DNA from: a virus
Taxonomy: Duplodnaviria > Heunggongvirae > Uroviricota > Caudoviricetes
DNA: 33,382 bases
IMG/VR virus record: IMGVR_UViG_2874945390_000012
Reading direction: 5' to 3' (one strand)
The notes under the pieces were generated by a model. The model made no database searches and was not told the origin of the DNA. It saw only the letters and a program-made list of their open reading frames with translations. Below are positions 15,938-26,434 of the stretch, piece after piece. The position numbers were made by a program, and so were the translations under genes. Every line of letters begins with the position of its first letter. Position 1 is the first letter of the stretch.

Positions 15938-16843
15938 TTATGCCGGGGTGGTGATGTACGGGCTGTCCACGATCTTCACATCCTTGTACCAGATGTTGGA
16001 ATCGCCACCGTTAACCAGCATGGCGTCAATAATGAGCTTCGCGTCCGCACGGTTTTTCGGCCCCACCACAAGGGTGGTCGGGCGGATGCCCAGCGGCTCA
16101 CCGTTGGTGCCCTTCATGCCCCGCAGCAACTCATTGGCTTTTTTGTAGTTCTCCACCGTCAGTGCTGCATGGGAACCGACGGCGGTCTGCCAGAAGCCGA
16201 AGCCCGCATTACAGCGACCGTCCACGCCGTACAGGAACTCGTGGTTCTTGAAGGTGTGCTCGCTGTTCAGATCGTCCAGGGCTTCAAACTTAAAGGCGCG
16301 TCGCGTCTGCCAGATGATGGGTTTCAGCACCTGCGACTCATCAATCAGGAACCACGGTTCGCCCTTGTCTGATGCCGGGGTGCCGACAACGTTGCTGTAC
16401 GTACCGTCACCCAGCGGGTAGTCTTCATCAAAGAAGTTCTGGCCGTCAAAGCACAGGGTGTTAAAACCGGCACACAACAGGGCGTAACACAGCTTGTCCG
16501 GGAACACAGCAGTCATACGGCCATAGCGTTCGGCGGTAATGCTGTACTGACCAATCTGGTCATCTTCAATGTGTTCACGCTTAACGCGAATGGAACTTTC
16601 CCAGAGTTTGTTGGTGATGGTGTAACCATAACCGTCCAGCGTTGCCAGCTGACGCTCACCGACCCATTCTTTGATGTCCGGTAAATCTTTCATCCAGCCG
16701 TAAGTGTTGGAGGCGGACGAACTCGGCACCTCAGAAGCAATACGATTCCACTGCGGTTCGACACCACTCAGTCCACGGGTAAAGGCGGCGCTCAGGCAGG
16801 TGGTCAGTGCATGAAGGATTTCAGAACTGATAGTCTGTGACAT
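15938..16843 (-). CDS. Major capsid protein (Mu T-like)
   Basis: 301-aa ORF after the I-like gene; size and position match Mu T. Confidence 0.85.
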   Translation of the reverse strand: MSQTISSEILHALTTCLSAAFTRGLSGVEPQWNRIASEVPSSSASNTYGWMKDLPDIKEWVGERQLATLDGYGYTITNKLWESSIRVKREHIEDDQIGQYSITAERYGRMTAVFPDKLCYALLCAGFNTLCFDGQNFFDEDYPLGDGTYSNVVGTPASDKGEPWFLIDESQVLKPIIWQTRRAFKFEALDDLNSEHTFKNHEFLYGVDGRCNAGFGFWQTAVGSHAALTVENYKKANELLRGMKGTNGEPLGIRPTTLVVGPKNRADAKLIIDAMLVNGGDSNIWYKDVKIVDSPYITTPA

Positions 16844-16850
16844 GTGTTAC

Positions 16851-17807
16851 TTACTCCTGTTTCGGTTTAGCGGCGAGGAACTCTTCCCCGGTAATACCCA
16901 TGCTGCGACACATCGCCAGTTCGGCATCGGTCAGTGTCTGCGCGGGTTTATCCTTGCCCTGGCTGGGCTTGTCGTTGTTAACCAGCGGCTGTGCACCTTT
17001 GGTGTACTCCGCAAACTGTTTGCGGCCTTCTTCCGTGCGGCAGGTGGCAAGGAACATGTCACGGTTTGCCGGGGCGACTTTTCCGGCCCCGATGGCCGCA
17101 TCCACAAGCGCCTCGGCTTCCTTCTCTTCCAGTTGCTGAAGGCGTTTTTCTGCGGTTTCGGCACGGTTCAGTGCCAGATTGTGGGTTTCCACCGGCACAA
17201 ACTTCGTCAGGTCAGGTGTCTGTGCGCGGTTCAGCGCCACCTGTTCGTTCTCCTGAAGTTGTTTAATGGCGGCCACGGTATCGTCCACCGTGGCGGATTC
17301 AGCCAGCCCAAGCAGGCCGGTGATTTGCACAGGTACTGTCATCGGGTTTTTCTCCGTATTCAGTGCAGGAAAATCCAGGTTAGGTTTGTTGGTCAGCCCG
17401 ACGCTGGACAGGCGCGTCACCGCACCGTCTGCGTCATGGAAAAACGCCGGGCTGTAATAGCGGTAGCGGCGCTCGCTCAGCATCCACCGGGCGGACTCAC
17501 TCCAGACAACACGCCCTTCAATGGTGCCGCTGTCCGTCACCCGCAGTGCTTCCACCCAGCCATACGCCGGAGCCTCTTCACCCCGCGGGCCTTTAATTTC
17601 GGTGGCATGTTCAATGTCCACCGGAATGTTGATGTCGGACGAACGGGCAACCACCTCATGTGGATTGCGGTTCATCCACGTCCGGCCATCGCGCCCGGTG
17701 AACTCACCCGCAGGAACGAGTTCAAGCCATTCCGGCAGTTGAGCGGGTGTCAGCTCAGGGATGGGTTCTGGCAGGGAAAAACACAGCGCCAGCAGTTCCG
17801 GTTGCAT
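16851..17807 (-). CDS. Head maturation protease/scaffold (Mu I-like)
   Basis: 318-aa ORF preceding the major capsid gene; Glu/Ala-rich coiled C-terminal half typical of I/Z scaffold; GGAG SD 8 nt upstream. Confidence 0.8.
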   Translation of the reverse strand: MQPELLALCFSLPEPIPELTPAQLPEWLELVPAGEFTGRDGRTWMNRNPHEVVARSSDINIPVDIEHATEIKGPRGEEAPAYGWVEALRVTDSGTIEGRVVWSESARWMLSERRYRYYSPAFFHDADGAVTRLSSVGLTNKPNLDFPALNTEKNPMTVPVQITGLLGLAESATVDDTVAAIKQLQENEQVALNRAQTPDLTKFVPVETHNLALNRAETAEKRLQQLEEKEAEALVDAAIGAGKVAPANRDMFLATCRTEEGRKQFAEYTKGAQPLVNNDKPSQGKDKPAQTLTDAELAMCRSMGITGEEFLAAKPKQE

Positions 17808-18021
17808 GTCAGTCTCCGTCGTCTGGGGTTACCGACGGTCAGTATGCGGAAGGCAGAAAAAAAGCCGGATTTACCGGCTTCACTGAAAACGGGGAAATAC
17901 CCCCTTCAAAACCCCTTCAAAAACGCCACAGACGCTTCAAAAAAGCCAGGGTGTACATTCATGCTATCAGAATAAAAAACGCGTTTCTGATGCGTTTCAG
18001 GGGTATTTACGGCGGGGTGGG
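17808..18021. promoter_or_regulatory. Central 214-bp non-coding island between F and I: terminators, repeats and the I-operon leader; candidate strong gyrase site
   Basis: No ORF in operon sense. Contains a terminator hairpin AAGCCGG-taaat-CCGGCTT plus T7 at 17857-17885, tandem TTTTGAAGGGG repeats, an AAACGCGTTT palindrome plus T-run, and a GGGGtatttCCCC hairpin. Confidence 0.6.
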
Positions 18022-18786
18022 TTATTCACTGTTAAAACGGGCCTGTCTGGCCGCCAGCTGGCGCGCCAGCTCCTGCTCACGGTTTATACCGGGATTGTAG
18101 TTCCAGCCCGGATCAATCCCTTCCGGCACATCTTCCTCTTCGCCCGTGCGTTTGTTCACCCAGCGGACAGTTCTGATTTCCGGCGCTTCGGTGTGAATGG
18201 TGCCCTGTGCCGCCAGTTGCGCATACTCACCACGGCTGACCTGACGGATGGTGCATTTGCAGCCCCAGCCGTTAGGGGCAAAATGCGTCTGCCAGAACGG
18301 ATGATCTACCGGCAGACACAGACGCGCCCATTTCACATGCTCCACCCGGTGCTCACGGGATGGCCCCAGCTCGTACATCAGATACGGCATGGCCTGCTTT
18401 GTCCGCTGAATGCGTTCCCACTGGCCCGCCGCGCGGGCGGTGCGCATGTTGGTATCAAAAATCGTGCGGAGGCGGCGGTCGCTGCCCAGTTGCACGGTGC
18501 GGGTTTCACCCGTCAGCGGATCATCCATCTCCTGTACGCCCCACCATCCGCGTTTTATCAGCAACGGTTGCAGCATCTCCCGGAACTCGCTGAACGTCTG
18601 CCCGCTTTGCAGGGCGTCTTCCACAAGGGCTTTCACATCCGACAACAAATCCAGTTGCAGCATTCTGGCCACGGGGAAGCTGTACCGGTGCTCTTCCCGC
18701 CACACATCCCGGTAATCAAAACCGGGACGCAGCTTCTTCGCCTTCAGCCACGCCAGCGCCTCTTTCGGGATGAGGGTTTCACGCAT
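18022..18786 (-). CDS. Head morphogenesis protein (Mu F-like)
   Basis: ORF starting at MRETLIPKEALAWLKAKK..., overlapping the portal stop; position after the portal as in Mu. Confidence 0.75.
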   Translation of the reverse strand: MRETLIPKEALAWLKAKKLRPGFDYRDVWREEHRYSFPVARMLQLDLLSDVKALVEDALQSGQTFSEFREMLQPLLIKRGWWGVQEMDDPLTGETRTVQLGSDRRLRTIFDTNMRTARAAGQWERIQRTKQAMPYLMYELGPSREHRVEHVKWARLCLPVDHPFWQTHFAPNGWGCKCTIRQVSRGEYAQLAAQGTIHTEAPEIRTVRWVNKRTGEEEDVPEGIDPGWNYNPGINREQELARQLAARQARFNSE

Positions 18787-20350
18787 GAGCAGTGTCTCCC
18801 AGCGCACGCGCCTTAAAGCACACCTCCGCCAGTTGCAGGGCAAAGTCGTCCGCGTTCAGCGTTTCCTGAAGCTCAGGCAGGCGTTTCAGAAAGTCATCAA
18901 AACTGTCGCACTCCTGCGCCAGTGTCAGCACCGGGTTCGTGAACGCCTCGCCGGTTTTCTGCCAGTCACGCAGGGCATCATCCACCATCTGTGCCAGTTC
19001 GTCGGGGTGTTCCCTGTTCAGGGCGACGCGCTCGCGGTTCATCGCCATATCACCCGGCATCCCGGCGGAAACCGGATGCAGAACATCAGCCCCTTCGTCT
19101 GGCTCAGCCAGGCCGAACCGGTCCCGCAGCTCCGATTCCTGAACCCGCATCCCCCGGTCAATCAGCGGCACCAGAGCATCCGTCAGCGCCTTCAGATCTT
19201 CGGCTTCACTGATACGCAGAACAACACGGGGGTAGTGCGCCTGTGGCCCGTAGTTGGCCTCGATGTAGGGCCGCACCAGATATTCATTCAGCGTGTTAGC
19301 CAGCTGTCGCGCGTCCCAGCGCACAATGTCCATGCGCACCTGATTGTGCACGTCCGCCTGTGAACGCGAACTGCCGTTATCCGTGGTCATGGTCTGCCCC
19401 AGCACAGCCTTACTGATTTGCGCATCGCACCATTCCGCCATTTCACGGAACAGTGCGCCGCCGTTATTCCGGCTAGCGGTTTCCTGCATCTCCAGTTGCA
19501 TGGACTGCGGAATGGCACACCCGGCATCCGAGGCAATGGAGGCAATCGCATCAATCAGCACGCGGATTTGCTCCTCCGTGGCGTTGGGACCGTATTTCCC
19601 CACCGTAACCGGAATGCCGAATTTTTCCGCAAATGCCCACCAGTCGCGCACGGTAAAGGATTTCAGCATGTACATCACAGCCACCAGACGGGCCAGACCG
19701 TTACGCAGCGGCAGACCGGATTTCAGACGCGGCTGGTGAACAATGAATTTTCCCGGTGTCAGCGGTACGCCATCCACCGGTTCATCGTCCGTCAGCAGGC
19801 GGAACTGGCGCAGCGTGGGCTTTTCGGCTTTCAGAAAACGGGGATCAACCCACTCATAATCACGGGGCATCCAGTGGTTGTTGCGGGTGTCCCACAGGAT
19901 TTCACAGACCGCCACGCCTTTTCCCAGCCCGTCGAGCAAATCAAACATCAGTTCGGGGATTTGCGGGGCTTCCATCAGCGCACGGATGGCGTCCGCCAGC
20001 TGCACGTCGGCATCGTCATCACTGGCGGCCACCACCACCGGTTCGATACCTGCCACTGTCAGCTTGCGGGTGCGCAGCACCGAGGCGTAATGCAAATCAC
20101 GTTCTTCCATCTCTTCGGCAAGGATAAAAAAATCACGCGTGATGCCGTCGGCGGCATTGCGCAGAATGCCTGCCAGCCTGCCGGGGTTCAGCCCGGAGGC
20201 GACGCTGATACCCGGCGAGGTCGGACGCACACCGGCATGACGCGGACGGGCCTGTGCTTCGTTGAGCGCCTCTTTTTTCAGCGTGTCTTCCTCACCGGTT
20301 GCCGGATTCAGCAGACGGCGAACGGCCCCGGCCAGTTGTTTCAGGTTCAC
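18779..20350 (-). CDS. Portal protein (Mu gp29/H-like)
   Basis: 523-aa ORF immediately after the terminase large subunit gene. Confidence 0.85.
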   Translation of the reverse strand: MNLKQLAGAVRRLLNPATGEEDTLKKEALNEAQARPRHAGVRPTSPGISVASGLNPGRLAGILRNAADGITRDFFILAEEMEERDLHYASVLRTRKLTVAGIEPVVVAASDDDADVQLADAIRALMEAPQIPELMFDLLDGLGKGVAVCEILWDTRNNHWMPRDYEWVDPRFLKAEKPTLRQFRLLTDDEPVDGVPLTPGKFIVHQPRLKSGLPLRNGLARLVAVMYMLKSFTVRDWWAFAEKFGIPVTVGKYGPNATEEQIRVLIDAIASIASDAGCAIPQSMQLEMQETASRNNGGALFREMAEWCDAQISKAVLGQTMTTDNGSSRSQADVHNQVRMDIVRWDARQLANTLNEYLVRPYIEANYGPQAHYPRVVLRISEAEDLKALTDALVPLIDRGMRVQESELRDRFGLAEPDEGADVLHPVSAGMPGDMAMNRERVALNREHPDELAQMVDDALRDWQKTGEAFTNPVLTLAQECDSFDDFLKRLPELQETLNADDFALQLAEVCFKARALGDTAHA

Positions 20351-21882
20351 AGTAAACCTCCCTCATTTTTCAGGCCGCGTGTCAGCTTCATCTGGCGGCG
20401 CGCGTTGCCTTCTTCCGGTTTCGCCGGGCGGTTCAGGCGGTGCAGCTCGTAACGGTGGCAGTCATCTTTACTGGCAAGGAAGCCCAGGAAAATAGCCACA
20501 GCGGCGTCGCCGTGACGCTTGCGGCCATCACTGCCTTTAGTACGGGCATCGTCAATACCGGGAACGCCACGCAGTAACTGAATGGCCCCGAGGTCATTGA
20601 TCACATCTTCATGCTTCGGAAGGATCAGCTCATCATCTTCAAACGCCGCACGGAAACGGGGCATGTTTTCGCGGTAGAACGCCACGGACAGCATCACCTG
20701 TTCCACCTCGTCGCCGTATCGTTCTGCCGCCTGTTCTGCCAGATACTGACCATTACCCCGCGCATCCATTTTGATACCGTCACGACGGGGCAGACGATCG
20801 CAAAGCCAGAACAGCACCTGCTCCTGCTGTTTAAACGGCACATTGGCAAGCTCAACCAGAAACGGCACCTCGCGGGTGGTGTCGTCGTTCACCGTCACCG
20901 GGGCCAGCACGGTCAGGTCACCCGAACGCGCAAAGTCTTCCCCCAGACAGTGGCGCAGATTCTTCGGGAGTTTTTCCAGCTCAGGGCGCACCACCGTTTC
21001 CAGCCATTCCCTGATCTCTGCCCGGCGCTGGCCTTCCGTCAGTGCGTTAAATTCCGGTGTGCCGGTAAAGCGCAACACTTTTCCGGTGCCACGGGCCGCA
21101 CGTTCACGCAGTGAGCGGGGGATATACGTGCCGCCGCCGTTTTTCGGGACGCAGTAATACTCCTCCAGCGCATCTTCGCGGGTGGCGGTATTTCGCAGCA
21201 GGCCTTCTTTCCATTCCACCTCGGCTTCCGGTGACCACACCATGCCGCGCACCTGACAGATACGCCGGTACAGCCCGTCATTACAGGCGTCATCCAGCGT
21301 GATGGTGTGAATACGGTAATCTTTTTTGCCCGCGCGGCTTTCCTGAATCAGCTGGTTAAACGGGTTGTCCACGCCGTCATGGGTGGAGATAAGGCGAACC
21401 TTACCGCCCCACGTGGTCAGTGGTGTGACCGCCTTGAGTACCTCATCCAGCTTTTCATGAAACGCCGCTTCGTCGATGGTGGCATTCCCCTGCATCCCGC
21501 GAATGTTGCCCGGATTACTGGACAGCGCCTTGACCTTAAATCCGCTGGCGAAGTACACGACGAACGTCAGAATGTCCTTGTCTTCGTCGGTGATCACTTC
21601 CTCGCGGATTTCTTCCGCGGCTGCATTAAACGCTTTTGCCCACATCGCCACGGCGTCGATAAATTCGCGGGCCATCTCCTTGTTCGAACCGATGTAAAAG
21701 TGATCGCGCCCGCCGTTTTCCTTCTTCAGTGATGCGGTCAGTGCCGCATCTGCCGCTTCCGCCCAGGTTAAACCGGTACGGCGGGATTTTTCGGCGATTT
21801 TCAGTTTTGAATCATCCGCCACCCAGCGTTTCTGATACGGCAGCAGAACATCGGATTCACTGAATGCGTTCATCTGTGTCAT
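20347..21882 (-). CDS. Terminase large subunit (Mu gp28-like)
   Basis: 511-aa ORF; size and position typical; overlaps neighbours by 4 nt. Confidence 0.85.
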   Translation of the reverse strand: MTQMNAFSESDVLLPYQKRWVADDSKLKIAEKSRRTGLTWAEAADAALTASLKKENGGRDHFYIGSNKEMAREFIDAVAMWAKAFNAAAEEIREEVITDEDKDILTFVVYFASGFKVKALSSNPGNIRGMQGNATIDEAAFHEKLDEVLKAVTPLTTWGGKVRLISTHDGVDNPFNQLIQESRAGKKDYRIHTITLDDACNDGLYRRICQVRGMVWSPEAEVEWKEGLLRNTATREDALEEYYCVPKNGGGTYIPRSLRERAARGTGKVLRFTGTPEFNALTEGQRRAEIREWLETVVRPELEKLPKNLRHCLGEDFARSGDLTVLAPVTVNDDTTREVPFLVELANVPFKQQEQVLFWLCDRLPRRDGIKMDARGNGQYLAEQAAERYGDEVEQVMLSVAFYRENMPRFRAAFEDDELILPKHEDVINDLGAIQLLRGVPGIDDARTKGSDGRKRHGDAAVAIFLGFLASKDDCHRYELHRLNRPAKPEEGNARRQMKLTRGLKNEGGLL

Positions 21883-22460
21883 ACACTAATCCCCAGAATT
21901 TCACGTTTGATGGTGTCAGCCGCACCGCCTGACAGACCGCCCGCTCTGACCAGCTCTTCGGTTTTCTCTGCCATTTCCTGCGCAAACGCATCGCGGATTG
22001 CTTTTTCGCGTTTATGGCTGGTCATGGCTGCCGCTTCCAGACGCTGGGCAACCAGCGCCAGTTGCCCCAGCGCCTTCGGTGCAACAGGTTTGTCGTCTTC
22101 TGTCATCGACATGGACGTTTCAAAGGCCAGCGTTTTTACAAACTCCATCAGCAGCCTGCCGACGTCTGACGTCGGCGCGGAACCCAGCTTTGCCGCCCAG
22201 ACTTCGGCCATTTCGCGGGAGGCACGGATTTTTGCCCCGACTTTTTCCATGCGGCTGGCATAGCGGTTTAAGCCCGTCCGGCTTAACTGCATCTCCCCCG
22301 GCAGGTTGTGTTCGTCAATCAGGGCATTGATGGCTTCGCGGATTTCTTCCTGCGTGTGCCGCTTTTCCCGCAGCATCTGGTGTAACTGCTCACGGATGCT
22401 GTCCGGGAGTAAATCCACTTTGGAAAGACGGCCACGGGTGGGGCGTTGTTCATTTTCCAT
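21879..22460 (-). CDS. Putative terminase small subunit (Mu gp27-like)
   Basis: 193-aa ORF immediately upstream of the large terminase gene; basic N-terminus. Confidence 0.6.
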   Translation of the reverse strand: MENEQRPTRGRLSKVDLLPDSIREQLHQMLREKRHTQEEIREAINALIDEHNLPGEMQLSRTGLNRYASRMEKVGAKIRASREMAEVWAAKLGSAPTSDVGRLLMEFVKTLAFETSMSMTEDDKPVAPKALGQLALVAQRLEAAAMTSHKREKAIRDAFAQEMAEKTEELVRAGGLSGGAADTIKREILGISV

Positions 22461-24765: not shown

Positions 24766-25353
24766 TCATCCCCGCGTGACGGACGACACGTTGTCGATAA
24801 TTTCCAGACAGGCGTCGGTCACTTTCTCCATGCGGTTAAACCAGCCGTTCAGGTATTTGCCCTGGGCAGGTTTGGATTTGATGATGTCGGCATAAAAGCG
24901 GGAACGACGGACAATGCAGCGGGTCAGCAACCAGTCCGGGGTGGACAGGCTCACTGCCTTACGGGTACGCGGACCGATGATGCCGTCAGCATCCACATCA
25001 GCGGCTTCCTGCAAAATCCTGATAGCTTTTTTAACGCCATGCTGAACCGCCGCATCGAACACAAACATCGCCACGCCATCAGGCCACTGGTCACATCCGG
25101 CAGGCAGCCAGTAATCGCGCCAGTAAATCTGCGCGACCTGTTCGCGGGTTAAATCCCTGATGCGGGTATCCGGTTTACCGTCGCCGCTGACATCGGTTTT
25201 GCCGTCAATCACACCGTCGCGGCGGTCAGAAATGCCGTATCTGGTTTCGCCGCCACGGTCAGTGGGGTCATTGACATAGACGCCTTCGATATCGGGACGC
25301 AGAATAAAATTCAGCGCATGTTCAAAGGCCGGGGAGAATTTCAGATTTTCCAT
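24766..25353 (-). CDS. Endolysin, GH108-type muramidase with a C-terminal peptidoglycan-binding domain
   Basis: Motifs TDRGGETRYGI and DGIIGPRTR; 195 aa; first gene after the Mor/C gene and terminator; SD AGGTG upstream. Confidence 0.8.
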   Translation of the reverse strand: MENLKFSPAFEHALNFILRPDIEGVYVNDPTDRGGETRYGISDRRDGVIDGKTDVSGDGKPDTRIRDLTREQVAQIYWRDYWLPAGCDQWPDGVAMFVFDAAVQHGVKKAIRILQEAADVDADGIIGPRTRKAVSLSTPDWLLTRCIVRRSRFYADIIKSKPAQGKYLNGWFNRMEKVTDACLEIIDNVSSVTRG

Positions 25354-25410
25354 AAAAGCACCTGTGAAGCAGAGTTAAACGTGGTCTGCTTCATGGTGCC
25401 GGAGGCATAA

Positions 25411-25436
25411 AAAAAGCCGGATTTACCGGCTTCATT
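25411..25436 (-). terminator. Rho-independent terminator after the Mor/C-like gene
   Basis: Minus-strand sense TGAAGCCGGTAAATCCGGCTTTTTTT: 7-bp stem, 5-nt loop, T7; identical to the element at 17857-17885. Confidence 0.65.
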
Positions 25437-25438
25437 GA

Positions 25439-25888
25439 TTAAGGACGTCGTGGCGGACGACGAACGGGGTGAGGCAGGTTCGGGGAGTGGTAAAACAAAT
25501 CCGGCTGGTATTTATTACACTCCAGACGCCGCATCCGTTTGATGGCCTTGTAGACGGTTTTATACGTCACCCCGTAACGCTGAACCAGTTCAGGAATATT
25601 ATGGCCGTTAAAATCACGCCAGATACGCATATCCCGGACAAGATTCTCCAGAATATTCCCCCTCGGAACATAAACCTGCATCCCGCCGATATGGCGACAA
25701 ATCGCCACAACCAGCTCAAGGGAATGAGCAGGGTCTGCGCCAATCCGGGCCAGCTCTTTACGCAGCAGTGCGTTCAGTTCAGAAAGTAACGCCGGATAAG
25801 CCGTGTTTTCCTGGTAATCGTTAAGGTATTCCAGAACGCTGTCGTCCCGGAAGTCTTCGAATAAATCCTGCTCTTTCATCTGTTTCAT
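25439..25888 (-). CDS. mor: Mor/C-family transcriptional activator (closest to Mu Mor)
   Basis: ...DPAHSLELVVAICRHIGGMQVYVPRGNILENLVRDMRIWRDFNGHNIPELVQRYGVTYKTVYKAIKRMRRL closely matches the Mu Mor C-terminal HTH region as I recall it. Confidence 0.85.
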   Translation of the reverse strand: MKQMKEQDLFEDFRDDSVLEYLNDYQENTAYPALLSELNALLRKELARIGADPAHSLELVVAICRHIGGMQVYVPRGNILENLVRDMRIWRDFNGHNIPELVQRYGVTYKTVYKAIKRMRRLECNKYQPDLFYHSPNLPHPVRRPPRRP

Positions 25889-25939: not shown

Positions 25940-26434
25940 TCATAGCCGCGCAGCTCCTGCCCGGTTTCGCTCACAGGTAAAGGCACACCATGTCGGGCAA
26001 AGGCTCACGGATGCAGCGCATATGCCACTGTTTGAGCGTTTCGAGCACAACCTGCAACGATTCCCGTGACACCAGGCCAGCGTGGAAACACCCTGACCGC
26101 CATTACGTCTGGCTGTCAGGCGTTCAACGTATTTGTCCAGCGCAGCGTCGCTGATATCGGAGACGAAACCATCAAGGAACATCTGCTGCCAGATTTTATA
26201 AATCTTCTCGCGCGGTGTGACATGCCCCTTAAAGCGACGGCGGGGATGTTTTTTCTGCTTCTTAAAACCGCGCTCTTTCATGGCATCGAGCACACGTTCC
26301 AGTTGTGCAACGGAAAGCTCGCGGCAACTGGTTTTGCCCGTGCACTGCACCAGAAAGGTGCGGTAAGTGTCATCGTCGAGTTGCAGGTCACGACGGGCAA
26401 CATGAATTAATTTAATCAGGGATGTGCGGCTCAT
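25940..26434 (-). CDS. gemA: GemA-like protein (Mu gp16 family); C-terminal ~50 aa possibly out of frame
   Basis: N-terminus MSRTSLIKLIHVARRDLQLDDDTYRTFLVQCTGKTSCRELSVAQLERVLDAMKERGFKK is GemA-like; the C-terminal segment is Cys/Arg-rich and atypical, while an alternative frame reads protein-like. Confidence 0.7.
   Translation of the reverse strand: MSRTSLIKLIHVARRDLQLDDDTYRTFLVQCTGKTSCRELSVAQLERVLDAMKERGFKKQKKHPRRRFKGHVTPREKIYKIWQQMFLDGFVSDISDAALDKYVERLTARRNGGQGVSTLAWCHGNRCRLCSKRSNSGICAASVSLCPTWCAFTCERNRAGAARL

What the first reader, a model, noticed from the sequence alone, without database searches (positions are those of the whole stretch)
17857..17885. Second copy of the duplicated terminator hairpin, 50 nt before the I start codon
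Same 26-nt hairpin plus T7 as after the Mor/C gene, placed only ~50 nt upstream of the I-like gene's ATG. A second terminator-like hairpin (AAACGCGTTT plus T-run) lies further upstream. This leaves very little room for a conventional promoter, implying either read-through or antitermination of the hairpin, or that the hairpin DNA is itself a protein-binding dyad (GCCGG-taaat-CCGGC).
Basis: seen in the sequence. Interest (0 to 1): 0.45.

Follow-up and report, generated by a model that had tools for sequence, protein, structure and literature searches.

The report
Mor-activated late promoter containing a terminator hairpin
The duplicated "terminator" just upstream of the head-protease gene of this Mu-like E. 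coli prophage is most likely a copy of phage Mu's well-studied Mor-activated promoter, in which the activator's binding site overlaps a terminator hairpin, so no read-through or antitermination is needed and the feature is a new example of known biology.

Summary
A hairpin plus T7 at 17857-17883 recurs with one mismatch at 25409-25435, inside a 42-nt repeat. All genes here read on the minus strand.

The window is a Mu-like E. coli prophage with a single Mor/C-family activator, 62% identical to Mu Mor. Copy 2 lies upstream of the endolysin gene and copy 1 upstream of protease gene I.

Phage Mu carries the same element just after mor: AGTAAAGCCGGTTAATCCGGCTTTTTTT. Published Pm numbering places the Mor site (-51 to -36) on the hairpin's 5' arm and loop. 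The 3' arm and T-run fill the -35/spacer region, and the -10 starts 10 nt after the T-run.

The window has the same register: CATACT at 17846-17841, predicted start about 17833, 26 nt before the ATG. This also aligns with Mu's mapped PI promoter.

In 34 distinct enterobacterial relatives, the box and an NANNCT hexamer 22-23 nt downstream are always present upstream of I. Hairpin strength there ranges from 0 to -16.9 kcal/mol and the T-run is usually absent. The endolysin-proximal copy always keeps hairpin and T-run.

Best reading: a Mor-dependent late promoter that also carries an intrinsic terminator for incoming transcription. Antitermination is unnecessary. The "second hairpin" is not credible; it lies in a region homologous to Mu's central gyrase site.

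The parts
17857..17885 (-). The finding: hairpin GAAGCCGG-TAAAT-CCGGCTTT (17881-17861) plus T-run (17863-17857). It corresponds to about -52 to -24 of the predicted promoter.
17869..17884 (-). Predicted Mor-binding element AGTGA-AGCCGG-TAAAT. It matches 14 of 16 bases of the Mu Pm element AGTAA-AGCCGG-TTAAT (-51 to -36).
   Evidence: Mu numbering checked against published bases -57 to -52 = GTAAAC; conserved in relatives
17841..17846 (-). Predicted -10 hexamer CATACT, 10 nt after the T-run as in Mu Pm (TATCCT). It aligns with the -10 CAAACT of Mu PI.
17833..17833 (-). Predicted transcription start (plus or minus 2 nt), giving a 26-nt leader with GGAG (17816-17813) before the ATG at 17807. Inferred by register with Mu Pm, not measured.
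16851..17807 (-). Gene I (Mu-like head protease/scaffold), first gene of the operon served by the promoter.
   Evidence: PF10123, 6e-45
25409..25437 (-). Copy 2 of the module: box AATGA-AGCCGG-TAAAT (25436-25421), hairpin 25433-25413, T7 25415-25409. It lies upstream of the endolysin gene.
25393..25398 (-). Predicted -10 of copy 2 (CACCAT; relatives have CAAAAT, CACTAT or TAAATT). Predicted start about 25385, 32 nt before the endolysin ATG at 25353.
25439..25888 (-). The only Mor/C-family activator gene in the window (149 aa). It is 62% identical to Mu Mor and 32% to Mu C, with recognition-helix region TVYKAIKRMRRL.
24766..25353 (-). GH108 endolysin, first gene downstream of copy 2.
18022..18843 (-). 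Mu F-like head morphogenesis gene, last gene of the upstream late operon whose transcript would meet the copy-1 hairpin.
17890..17960 (-). Neighbouring block TTTTTTGAAGCG..GCGTTTTTGAAGGGGTTTTGAAGGGGGTA with phased T-tracts. It is homologous to the Mu G-I intergenic region that holds the strong gyrase site. It is not part of the promoter but abuts it.
6961..7006 (-). Candidate third box CAGGGAAAACGGTAAATC (7006-6989), then 22 nt, then TATTAT (6966-6961). It lies inside the gp45 baseplate gene and is a possible internal late promoter (lead only).

Best explanation
The element is the core of an activator-dependent late promoter, the equivalent of Mu PI. It is built like Mu's middle promoter Pm and is recognised by the prophage's single Mor protein.

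On DNA, Mor binds AGTGA-AGCCGG-TAAAT (17884-17869), which is the 5' arm and loop of the hairpin, centred near -43.5. The 3' arm and T-run occupy the position of a missing -35 element and the spacer. RNA polymerase with sigma-70 uses CATACT (17846-17841) as the -10 and starts near 17833. Transcripts of gene I therefore begin downstream of the T-run and never contain the hairpin.

As RNA, the same sequence transcribed from upstream folds into a G+C-rich stem followed by U7. This is predicted to terminate incoming transcription: the lys-to-F operon at copy 1, and the early operon at copy 2.

The phage therefore seems to run a two-step cascade, early genes to Mor to late operons, using copies of one promoter/terminator module.

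Shown here: sequence identity, register and conservation. Inferred: Mor binding, the start site and termination efficiency.
For: 1. Mu carries the same hairpin and T7 directly after mor. The published bases -57 to -52 = GTAAAC (PMC4390567 Table 3) fix Pm +1 at L006 position 1725. The published Mor element at -51 to -36 (PMC4287176) is then AGTAAAGCCGGTTAAT. The -10 TATCCT starts 10 nt after the T-run, and the window has CATACT at exactly that spacing.

2. The window encodes one Mor/C protein, 62% identical to Mu Mor and 32% to Mu C. Its helix-turn-helix region is nearly identical to Mor's and different from C's. RefSeq annotates a single Mor gene in the whole near-identical prophage.

3. MAFFT aligns the box with the activator-site position (CATAAC motif) upstream of Mu PI, and CATACT with the Mu PI -10 CAAACT. 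The -10 assignments come from the promoter oligonucleotides and the '20 nt downstream of the start' statement in PMC4461284.

4. Conservation upstream of gene I:
- In 34 distinct sequences from enterobacterial relatives, SSGTWAAT is followed at 22-23 nt by NANNCT (S = G/C, W = A/T). Hairpin energy ranges from 0.0 to -16.9 kcal/mol and most lack a T-run.
- Vibrionaceae relatives keep C(C/G)GTAAATC plus 21 nt plus TATTCT with no hairpin at all.

5. Every distinct variant of the endolysin-proximal copy recovered from relatives with Mor 63-99% identical keeps hairpin and T7-9. Homology begins at about -55 whatever lies upstream, whether the mor end or inserted genes.

6. The 53-nt element occurs in 46 of 5426 E. 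coli genomes, always at least twice per genome. It is 100% identical in 45 of 47 records although the intergenic region as a whole is about 92% identical.

7. No sigma-70-type promoter match lies in the F-I gap. The two copies are the strongest sense-strand terminator-like sites in the window.
Against: - There is no transcript, footprint or binding data for this phage.
- The -10 hexamers are weak: 4 of 6 matches for CATACT and 3 of 6 for CACCAT.
- The two 5-bp half-sites are less symmetric than in Mu (3 of 5 against 4 of 5).
- Upstream of gene I in relatives, the helix is still 81% paired. Three pairs show changes on both sides, and the covariation score exceeds every shuffled control and every slid control. 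Something beyond the published 16-bp element may therefore be selected, either hairpin potential or a longer dyad. That alignment is dominated by 2-3 haplotypes, so this is weak evidence.
- Termination efficiency is unknown, and some read-through into gene I cannot be excluded.
Confidence: 0.78

Rival explanations
1. The hairpin is only an intrinsic terminator. Gene I is expressed by partial read-through from the upstream late operon, or from an unrecognised promoter elsewhere in the gap.
For: The terminator anatomy is canonical, at -12.8 kcal/mol with U7. The predicted -10 hexamers are weak.
Against: Relatives lose the 3' arm and T-run upstream of gene I but keep the 5' arm, the loop and a correctly spaced NANNCT hexamer. 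The stem sequence is invariant across very divergent phages instead of covarying freely at the endolysin copy. It is identical in register to the mapped Mu Pm promoter. No sigma-70 promoter match lies in the gap.
Confidence: 0.08
2. Antitermination: a phage factor or RNA element lets polymerase read through the hairpin.
For: The only support is the position of a strong terminator-like hairpin 49 nt before an essential late gene.
Against: RefSeq annotates no Q/N-type antiterminator in the near-identical prophage. No known RNA family matches the gap; the only hit is sroD at 19 bits against a 50-bit gathering score. Mu-type phages are documented to control middle and late genes by the activators Mor and C (PMC2582627, PMC4390567). 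Most relatives have no T-run at this position.
Confidence: 0.03
3. The symmetric dyad GCCGG-N5-CCGGC (or the longer GAAGCCGG/CCGGCTTC) is itself the recognised site. The binder could be a Mor tetramer or another protein, so both arms matter at the DNA level.
For: Hairpin and dyad potential is partly kept upstream of gene I in relatives. Compensatory changes include AGCGG/CCGCT in L191 and AACCGG/CCGGTT in L202, and 81% of cells are paired. Bases just downstream of the Mor and C elements are reported to be critical for activation (PMC2582627). A preprint reports that Mor and C bind as tetramers over about 26 bp.
Against: The published Mor footprint is -56 to -36 and the published element is -51 to -36, which stops at the loop. 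The innermost variable pair is broken in 14 of 24 relatives, and several relatives have no pairing at all (0.0 kcal/mol) yet keep the box and -10. In the preprint, the region corresponding to the 3' arm is the suboptimal -35 element contacted by sigma region 4.
Confidence: 0.08
4. The hairpin is part of the central gyrase-binding site, or some other DNA-structural element, rather than a transcription signal.
For: It abuts a block homologous to the Mu strong-gyrase-site region near the centre of the prophage, with phased T-tracts.
Against: The second copy lies upstream of the endolysin gene, far from the centre. Mu and a Mu-type E. coli prophage keep the gyrase-site block but have no such hairpin upstream of I; they have the C-type CATAAC promoter motif there instead.
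Confidence: 0.03

Closest known systems
Phage Mu middle promoter Pm (Mor-dependent, sigma-70)
   Same: - The box matches 14 of 16 bases.
- The hairpin stem is the same and a T7 run follows.
- The distance to the -10 is the same and there is no -35.
- The activator is 62% identical, with a near-identical helix-turn-helix.
- Copy 2 sits at the same genomic boundary, the end of the early region.

   Different: - Here the promoter drives late operons directly (endolysin and head genes) instead of a middle operon encoding C. There is no C gene.
- It is present in two copies, possibly three.
- The loop is TAAAT instead of TTAAT.
- The half-sites are less symmetric.
Phage Mu late promoter PI (C-dependent)
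   Same: - Same genomic position, between the head-morphogenesis genes with the gyrase-site block and gene I.
- The -10 hexamers align (CAAACT versus CATACT).
- An activator site overlaps the -35 region.

   Different: - Mu PI has the CATAAC motif shared by the C-dependent late promoters (CATAACCCC in PI), 29 nt upstream of the -10, and no hairpin or T-run.
- The window has a Mor-type box, 28 nt from GTAAAT to the -10, embedded in a terminator hairpin.
Intrinsic (Rho-independent) terminator at an operon boundary
   Same: - G+C-rich 8-bp stem, 5-nt loop and U7 tail in the sense orientation after a gene.
- The same hairpin in Mu lies at about 9.2 kb and is the top terminator-like hit there.
- From my own memory, not checked here: Mu's early-transcript terminator was named t9.2, and the lys transcript was reported to end between G and I.
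   Different: - The stem sequence is frozen rather than free to covary, because its 5' half doubles as a protein-binding site.
- The terminator part is dispensable upstream of gene I in most relatives.
Lambda-type late antitermination (Q/qut, N/nut)
   Same: Only the picture of a terminator standing before late genes.
   Different: - No antiterminator gene or RNA element was found.
- The predicted start lies downstream of the terminator.

Membership tests
Mor/C-dependent promoter of Mu type (Pm-like) | A Mor/C-family activator is encoded by the same element | tested here: met
   PF08765 at 1.2e-30. 62% identical to Mu Mor. Single copy in the window and in the near-identical full prophage.
Mor/C-dependent promoter of Mu type (Pm-like) | A 16-bp imperfect dyad (two 5-bp repeats with a G/C-rich 6-bp spacer) overlapping the -35 region, centred near -43.5 | tested here: met
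   AGTGA-AGCCGG-TAAAT matches 14 of 16 bases of the Mu element. Its position relative to the -10 hexamer is identical to Mu Pm. Its position relative to a measured start site cannot be tested.
Mor/C-dependent promoter of Mu type (Pm-like) | A recognisable -10 hexamer and no -35 hexamer | tested here: met
   CATACT has A at position 2 and T at position 6 (4 of 6 matches). Candidate -35 hexamers at 16-18 bp spacing match TTGACA at 1-2 positions by direct reading. There is no hit in the sigma-70 scan. NANNCT is conserved in 34 of 34 distinct relatives.
Mor/C-dependent promoter of Mu type (Pm-like) | An A/T-rich proximal UP subsite at -57 to -52 | tested here: inconclusive
   The window has GTTTTC (copy 1) and TTAATC (copy 2) against GTAAAC in Mu. 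All are A/T-rich, but sequence alone is not diagnostic.
Mor/C-dependent promoter of Mu type (Pm-like) | Transcription depends on the activator, and the activator footprints on the element | not testable with these tools
   Needs EMSA or footprinting, promoter fusions, or RNA-seq of an induced lysogen with and without mor.
Intrinsic (Rho-independent) terminator | A stable G+C-rich stem-loop immediately followed by a U-tract, in the sense orientation downstream of a gene | tested here: met
   8 pairs, 5 of them G-C, loop of 5, then T7. -12.8 and -12.6 kcal/mol, z -3.4 and -3.6.
Intrinsic (Rho-independent) terminator | The structure rather than the sequence is conserved in relatives | tested here: inconclusive
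   At the endolysin copy, hairpin and T-run are present in all relatives, but the stem is invariant so there is no covariation to count. Upstream of gene I, 81% of cells pair and 3 pairs change on both sides. However, the T-run is present in only 4 of 24 distinct sequences, and energies range from 0 to -16.9 kcal/mol.
Intrinsic (Rho-independent) terminator | Measured termination of transcription | not testable with these tools
   Needs Term-seq or an in vitro termination assay.
Processive antitermination system (lambda Q/N type, put RNA) | An antiterminator protein gene or a cis-acting antiterminator RNA upstream of the terminator | tested here: not met
   None is annotated in the near-identical prophage. 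No Rfam family reaches threshold in 17600-18200.
Mu strong gyrase site (neighbouring block 17890-17960, not the hairpin itself) | Central position in the genome, in the intergenic region before gene I, homologous to the Mu site | tested here: met
   The Mu record marks the gyrase cut at 17879/80 in the G-I gap. The block aligns across Mu, a Mu-type E. coli prophage, the window and Klebsiella relatives. The gap lies at about 48% of the roughly 34.5-kb prophage.
Mu strong gyrase site (neighbouring block 17890-17960, not the hairpin itself) | Strong gyrase cleavage and a requirement for efficient replication | not testable with these tools
   Needs a quinolone-induced cleavage assay or deletion analysis.

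The most novel reading that the evidence does not exclude
The 27-nt module may be a true dual-use element in which Mor occupancy on the DNA also affects what happens to polymerases arriving from upstream. Mor could act as a roadblock or could alter hairpin-dependent termination. One protein would then set both the stop of the upstream operon and the restart of the next one. Copying the module, together with a third box embedded in the gp45 coding sequence, would be how Mor-only Mu-like phages create new late operon boundaries.
Probability: 0.1. Interest if true: 0.5.

Novelty: new member of a known kind. Interest (0 to 1): 0.3.

Why it matters
It turns an apparent paradox, a strong terminator right in front of an essential head gene, into a testable and ordinary mechanism.

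It also indicates that a widespread group of enterobacterial Mu-like prophages runs a shorter regulatory cascade than Mu. Mor appears to activate late operons directly through Pm-type promoters, with no C protein.

For annotation, the motif GAAGCCGGTWAATCC followed at about 21 nt by an NANNCT hexamer marks late promoters in these prophages. A 'terminator' call there should not be read as an operon end only.

The natural variants form a ready-made mutant series for separating the promoter function from the terminator function. They range from a full hairpin with T-run, to a hairpin without T-run, to no hairpin at all.

Tried and rejected
- Megablast of the F-I region against the phage collection found nothing. 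Distant blastn found only Klebsiella phage Kp4866-3 as a useful relative.
- The genome-contig scan with the I protein returned only 4 loci. The IMG/VR scans were far more useful.
- Blastn of the 53-nt element against the phage collection gave only chance hits, so Mu itself had to be fetched by accession.
- Rfam gave no family.
- No sigma-70 promoter match lies in the gap.
- I looked for further exact or near copies of the box. Only three exist in the window, and none lies in the gene N region where Mu has PP.
- I first mis-assigned the Mu Plys -10 to CATAAT and took the ATAACC..GGTTAT hairpin as the C site. The published oligonucleotides show the -10 is TAGACT and that a CATAAT/CATAAC motif lies 29 nt upstream of it.
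- A Mor-type reading of the region upstream of com/mom (GATTAAATACC, 22 nt, TATCCT) matches only the right half-site, so I did not count it.
- The AAACGCGTTT 'second terminator' was rejected as a hairpin.
- The older primary papers were not held in the library: Artsimovitch and Howe 1996, Oram and Pato 2004 and 2006, and the lys/P terminator paper. The names t9.2 and the lys-transcript terminator therefore rest on my memory only.

Full report
**Observation**

All phage genes in the window read on the minus strand. The 27-mer at 17857-17883 recurs at 25409-25435 with one mismatch, and no match appeared in shuffled sequence. The repeat extends to 42 nt at 90% identity, 17845-17886 versus 25397-25438.

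On the coding strand it reads GAAGCCGG-TAAAT-CCGGCTTT followed by further T's (seven in all). This is an 8-bp stem with five G-C pairs. It folds at -12.8 kcal/mol (copy 1) and -12.6 kcal/mol (copy 2), with z about -3.5. The T-run ends 49 nt before the ATG of gene I at 17807.

The 'second hairpin' AAACGCGTTTTTT (17986-17974) is a palindrome with no room for a loop. The best fold of that stretch uses other bases and is unremarkable at -7.8 kcal/mol, z -1.8.

**Context**

Pfam identifies the following genes, all on the minus strand:

| Gene | Coordinates |
|---|---|
| GemA | 25940-26434 |
| Mor-family protein | 25439-25888 |
| GH108 endolysin | 24766-25353 |
| gp27 | 21879-22460 |
| large terminase | 20347-21882 |
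| Mu portal | 18779-20350 |
| Mu F | 18022-18843 |
| Mu I protease | 16851-17807 |
| Mu T capsid | 15938-16843 |

- The window is a Mu-like prophage present in 49 of 5426 complete E. coli genomes.
- It has only one Mor/C-family gene, 62% identical to Mu Mor and 32% to Mu C.
- RefSeq also annotates a single Mor gene in the near-identical complete prophage of strain FDAARGOS_943.
- Copy 2 of the hairpin lies between mor and the endolysin gene. Copy 1 lies between F and I.
- These are the positions of Mu's Pm/Plys region and of Mu's PI.

**Link to Mu Pm**

In phage Mu (NC_000929) the sequence directly after the mor stop codon is AACAGTAAAGCCGGTTAATCCGGCTTTTTTTACGTCCTCAATATCCTG. It has the same stem and the same T7, with loop TTAAT instead of TAAAT. 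It is also the best terminator-like hit in that 12-kb part of Mu.

- Ma and Howe (PMC4390567, Table 3) give Pm bases -57 to -52 as GTAAAC. This fixes +1 at locus position 1725.
- The Mor dyad element is published as -51 to -36, and the Mor footprint as -56 to -36 (PMC4287176). It is described as two 5-bp inverted repeats separated by a G/C-rich hexanucleotide.
- On this numbering the element is AGTAA-AGCCGG-TTAAT, which is the 5' arm and loop of the hairpin.
- The 3' arm and T-run fall at -35 to -24. The -10 TATCCT begins 10 nt after the T-run.
- The window has AGTGA-AGCCGG-TAAAT (14 of 16 identical), followed by CCGGC, T7, 10 nt and CATACT.
- Copy 2 has AATGA-AGCCGG-TAAAT, followed by the same spacing and CACCAT.
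- The recognition-helix region TVYKAI(K/R)RMRRL is the same in the window protein, in Mu Mor and in two intermediate relatives. It differs in Mu C.

**Link to Mu PI**

A MAFFT alignment covered the F/G-to-I intergenic regions of the window, another E. coli variant, Klebsiella phage Kp4866-3, an IMG/VR relative, a Mu-type E. coli prophage and Mu itself. It places the window's box over the activator-site position (the CATAAC motif) of Mu PI. It places CATACT over CAAACT.

The oligonucleotides in PMC4461284, designed with 20 nt downstream of each mapped start, show the CATAAC/CATAAT motif followed by 29 nt and then the -10 in Plys, PI and PP. This confirms CAAACT as the -10 of PI.

Phages that have C (Mu, and the prophage in strain TUM9757) carry this C-type motif upstream of I and keep the hairpin only at Pm. 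Phages without C carry the Mor-type box upstream of I.

**Comparative test**

1. Within the E. coli clade, the block from CAGTGAAGCCGG to CATACTG upstream of I is essentially invariant while the flanks vary. The 53-nt element occurs in 46 genomes, always at least twice per genome. It is 100% identical in 45 of 47 records, although the gap as a whole is about 92% identical.

2. At the endolysin copy, the upstream context differs between variants. It may be the mor end, or any of several inserted genes. Homology begins at about -55 in every case.

3. Every distinct variant of the endolysin copy recovered from relatives with Mor 63-99% identical keeps GAAGCCGGTWAATCCGGC and T7-9 (W = A/T). A hexamer with A at position 2 and T at position 6 follows in each.

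4. Upstream of gene I, all 34 distinct sequences from enterobacterial relatives that matched the box pattern have SSGTWAAT followed at 22-23 nt by NANNCT (S = G/C). The hexamers are CATACT, GACACT, CACACT, CATGCT and CATCCT.
- Hairpin energy there ranges from 0.0 to -16.9 kcal/mol, and the T-run is present in a minority.
- Two examples: Kp4866-3 folds at -8.7 kcal/mol (z -1.4), and L029 at -4.3 (z 0.0).

5. Vibrionaceae relatives keep C(C/G)GTAAATC plus 21 nt plus TATTCT with no hairpin. They place a separate, unrelated terminator hairpin before their endolysin promoter.

The DNA box and the -10 are therefore the conserved unit. The terminator is strictly kept only at the early/late boundary.

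**A nuance**

On 24 distinct gene I sites, the helix is still 81% paired. Three pairs change on both sides, and the covariation score is above every shuffled control and every slid control. However, the pair at alignment columns 10-20 is broken in 14 of 24 sequences, and the set is dominated by two or three haplotypes.

Bases just downstream of the Mor and C elements are reported to matter for activation. A preprint places sigma region 4 on the suboptimal -35 there and reports tetrameric binding. Some selection on the 3' arm, at the DNA or the RNA level, is therefore plausible and unresolved.

**Mechanism proposed**

1. Mor is made from the early operon and binds the box.
2. It recruits polymerase to a promoter that lacks a -35 element.
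3. Initiation occurs about 24 nt past the T-run. The predicted starts are about 17833 for gene I (26-nt leader with GGAG) and about 25385 for the endolysin gene.
4. Transcription arriving from upstream meets the hairpin and U7 and is predicted to stop there.
5. No antitermination is needed.

Sequence identity, register and conservation are shown here. Binding, start sites and termination are inferred.

**Surroundings**

The block 17890-17960 is homologous to the Mu G-I region that carries the annotated gyrase cut site. A 46-nt stretch is 96% identical in an otherwise dissimilar Mu-type prophage. Its T-tracts are spaced at roughly 10-11 or 21 bp. The gap lies near the centre of the roughly 34.5-kb prophage.

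**Novelty**

This is a new member of a known kind, a Pm-type Mor-dependent promoter. The modest new points are:

- it is used directly for late operons in a phage group that has Mor but no C;
- it exists as a duplicated promoter/terminator module;
- there is a possible third box inside gp45.

**Limits**

- No experimental data exist for this phage.
- The names t9.2 and the Mu lys-transcript terminator are from my memory and could not be checked.

Noticed in passing
window 17890-17960 (-): The block TTTTTTGAAGCG..GCGTTTTTGAAGGGGTTTTGAAGGGGGTA is homologous to the Mu G-I intergenic region that carries the annotated strong gyrase cut site. A 46-nt stretch is 96% identical in an otherwise dissimilar Mu-type E. 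coli prophage (TUM9757). T-tracts are phased at about 10-11 or 21 bp, and the gap lies at about 48% of the prophage. It is probably this phage's central gyrase site.
   Followed up: partly
window 6961-7006 (-): A third copy of the box, CAGGGAAAACGGTAAATC, followed by 22 nt and TATTAT, lies inside the gp45 (baseplate V) coding sequence. A degenerate pattern summarising the three sites (CAGNGAARNCGGTWAATC, up to 1 mismatch) matches only these three places in the window and none in shuffles. The codons GGG-AAR-NNG-GTW-AAT keep their synonymous positions in 28 distinct gp45 relatives at 63-70% protein identity. Mu's own PP also lies inside a gene (N). This is a possible internal late promoter.
   Followed up: partly
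window 6445-8349 (-): Relative to the 99%-identical FDAARGOS_943 prophage, the window lacks about 70 nt in gp44/P and about 49 nt at the gp45/gp46 junction. This produces split and fused ORFs (7513-8349, 7364-7678, 6654-7373, 6445-6633). The baseplate genes look defective, or the assembly has errors.
   Followed up: partly
window 1-210: Positions 1-113 do not match the FDAARGOS_943 locus, so the prophage right end is near 114 and the insertion site differs between strains. The repeats ATATGGAA..TTCAAGATAA at 141-202 look like transposase end-binding sites.
   Followed up: no
window 240-1200 (-): A com/mom-like pair sits at the right end. Upstream of it is a GATCGAT...ATCGATC cluster (about 1160-1185) that resembles, from my memory of the Mu literature, the Dam/OxyR-controlled region of Mu Pmom. 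A weak Mor-type reading (GATTAAATACC, 22 nt, TATCCT) matches only the right half-site.
   Followed up: no
window 200-217 (both strands): A bidirectional terminator-like hairpin, GCAGCGG-TTAAT-GCCGCTG, lies just after mom. Its loop is the same TTAAT as in the Mu Pm hairpin.
   Followed up: no
window 17891-17904 (-): A small hairpin, GGGG-GTATTT-CCCC followed by GTTTTC, lies immediately upstream of the box. It aligns with AATCCCGTTTTATC in the Mu G-I gap and could be a weak additional terminator for the upstream operon.
   Followed up: no
window 25439-25888 (-), N-terminus: The Mor protein has the DLF motif (QDLFE), which is invariant in all six aligned Mor/C proteins. A 2026 paper (PMC12867686) proposes this motif as a sliding-clamp-binding motif in Mu C and Mor.
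   Followed up: no
L007 937-1434; L005 3160-3480; L012, L014 and others: In several relatives, unrelated extra genes (morons) are inserted between mor and the hairpin. One is an AT-rich membrane-like ORF in Kp4866-3. The hairpin/box module always stays at the same distance from the endolysin gene.
   Followed up: partly
L149-L215, upstream of gene I: There are two promoter 'alleles' upstream of gene I among relatives. One has hairpin, T-run, 22-nt spacing and CATACT. The other has a weak or absent hairpin, no T-run, 23-nt spacing and GACACT or CACACT. They are distributed mosaically across lineages, which suggests module exchange.
   Followed up: partly
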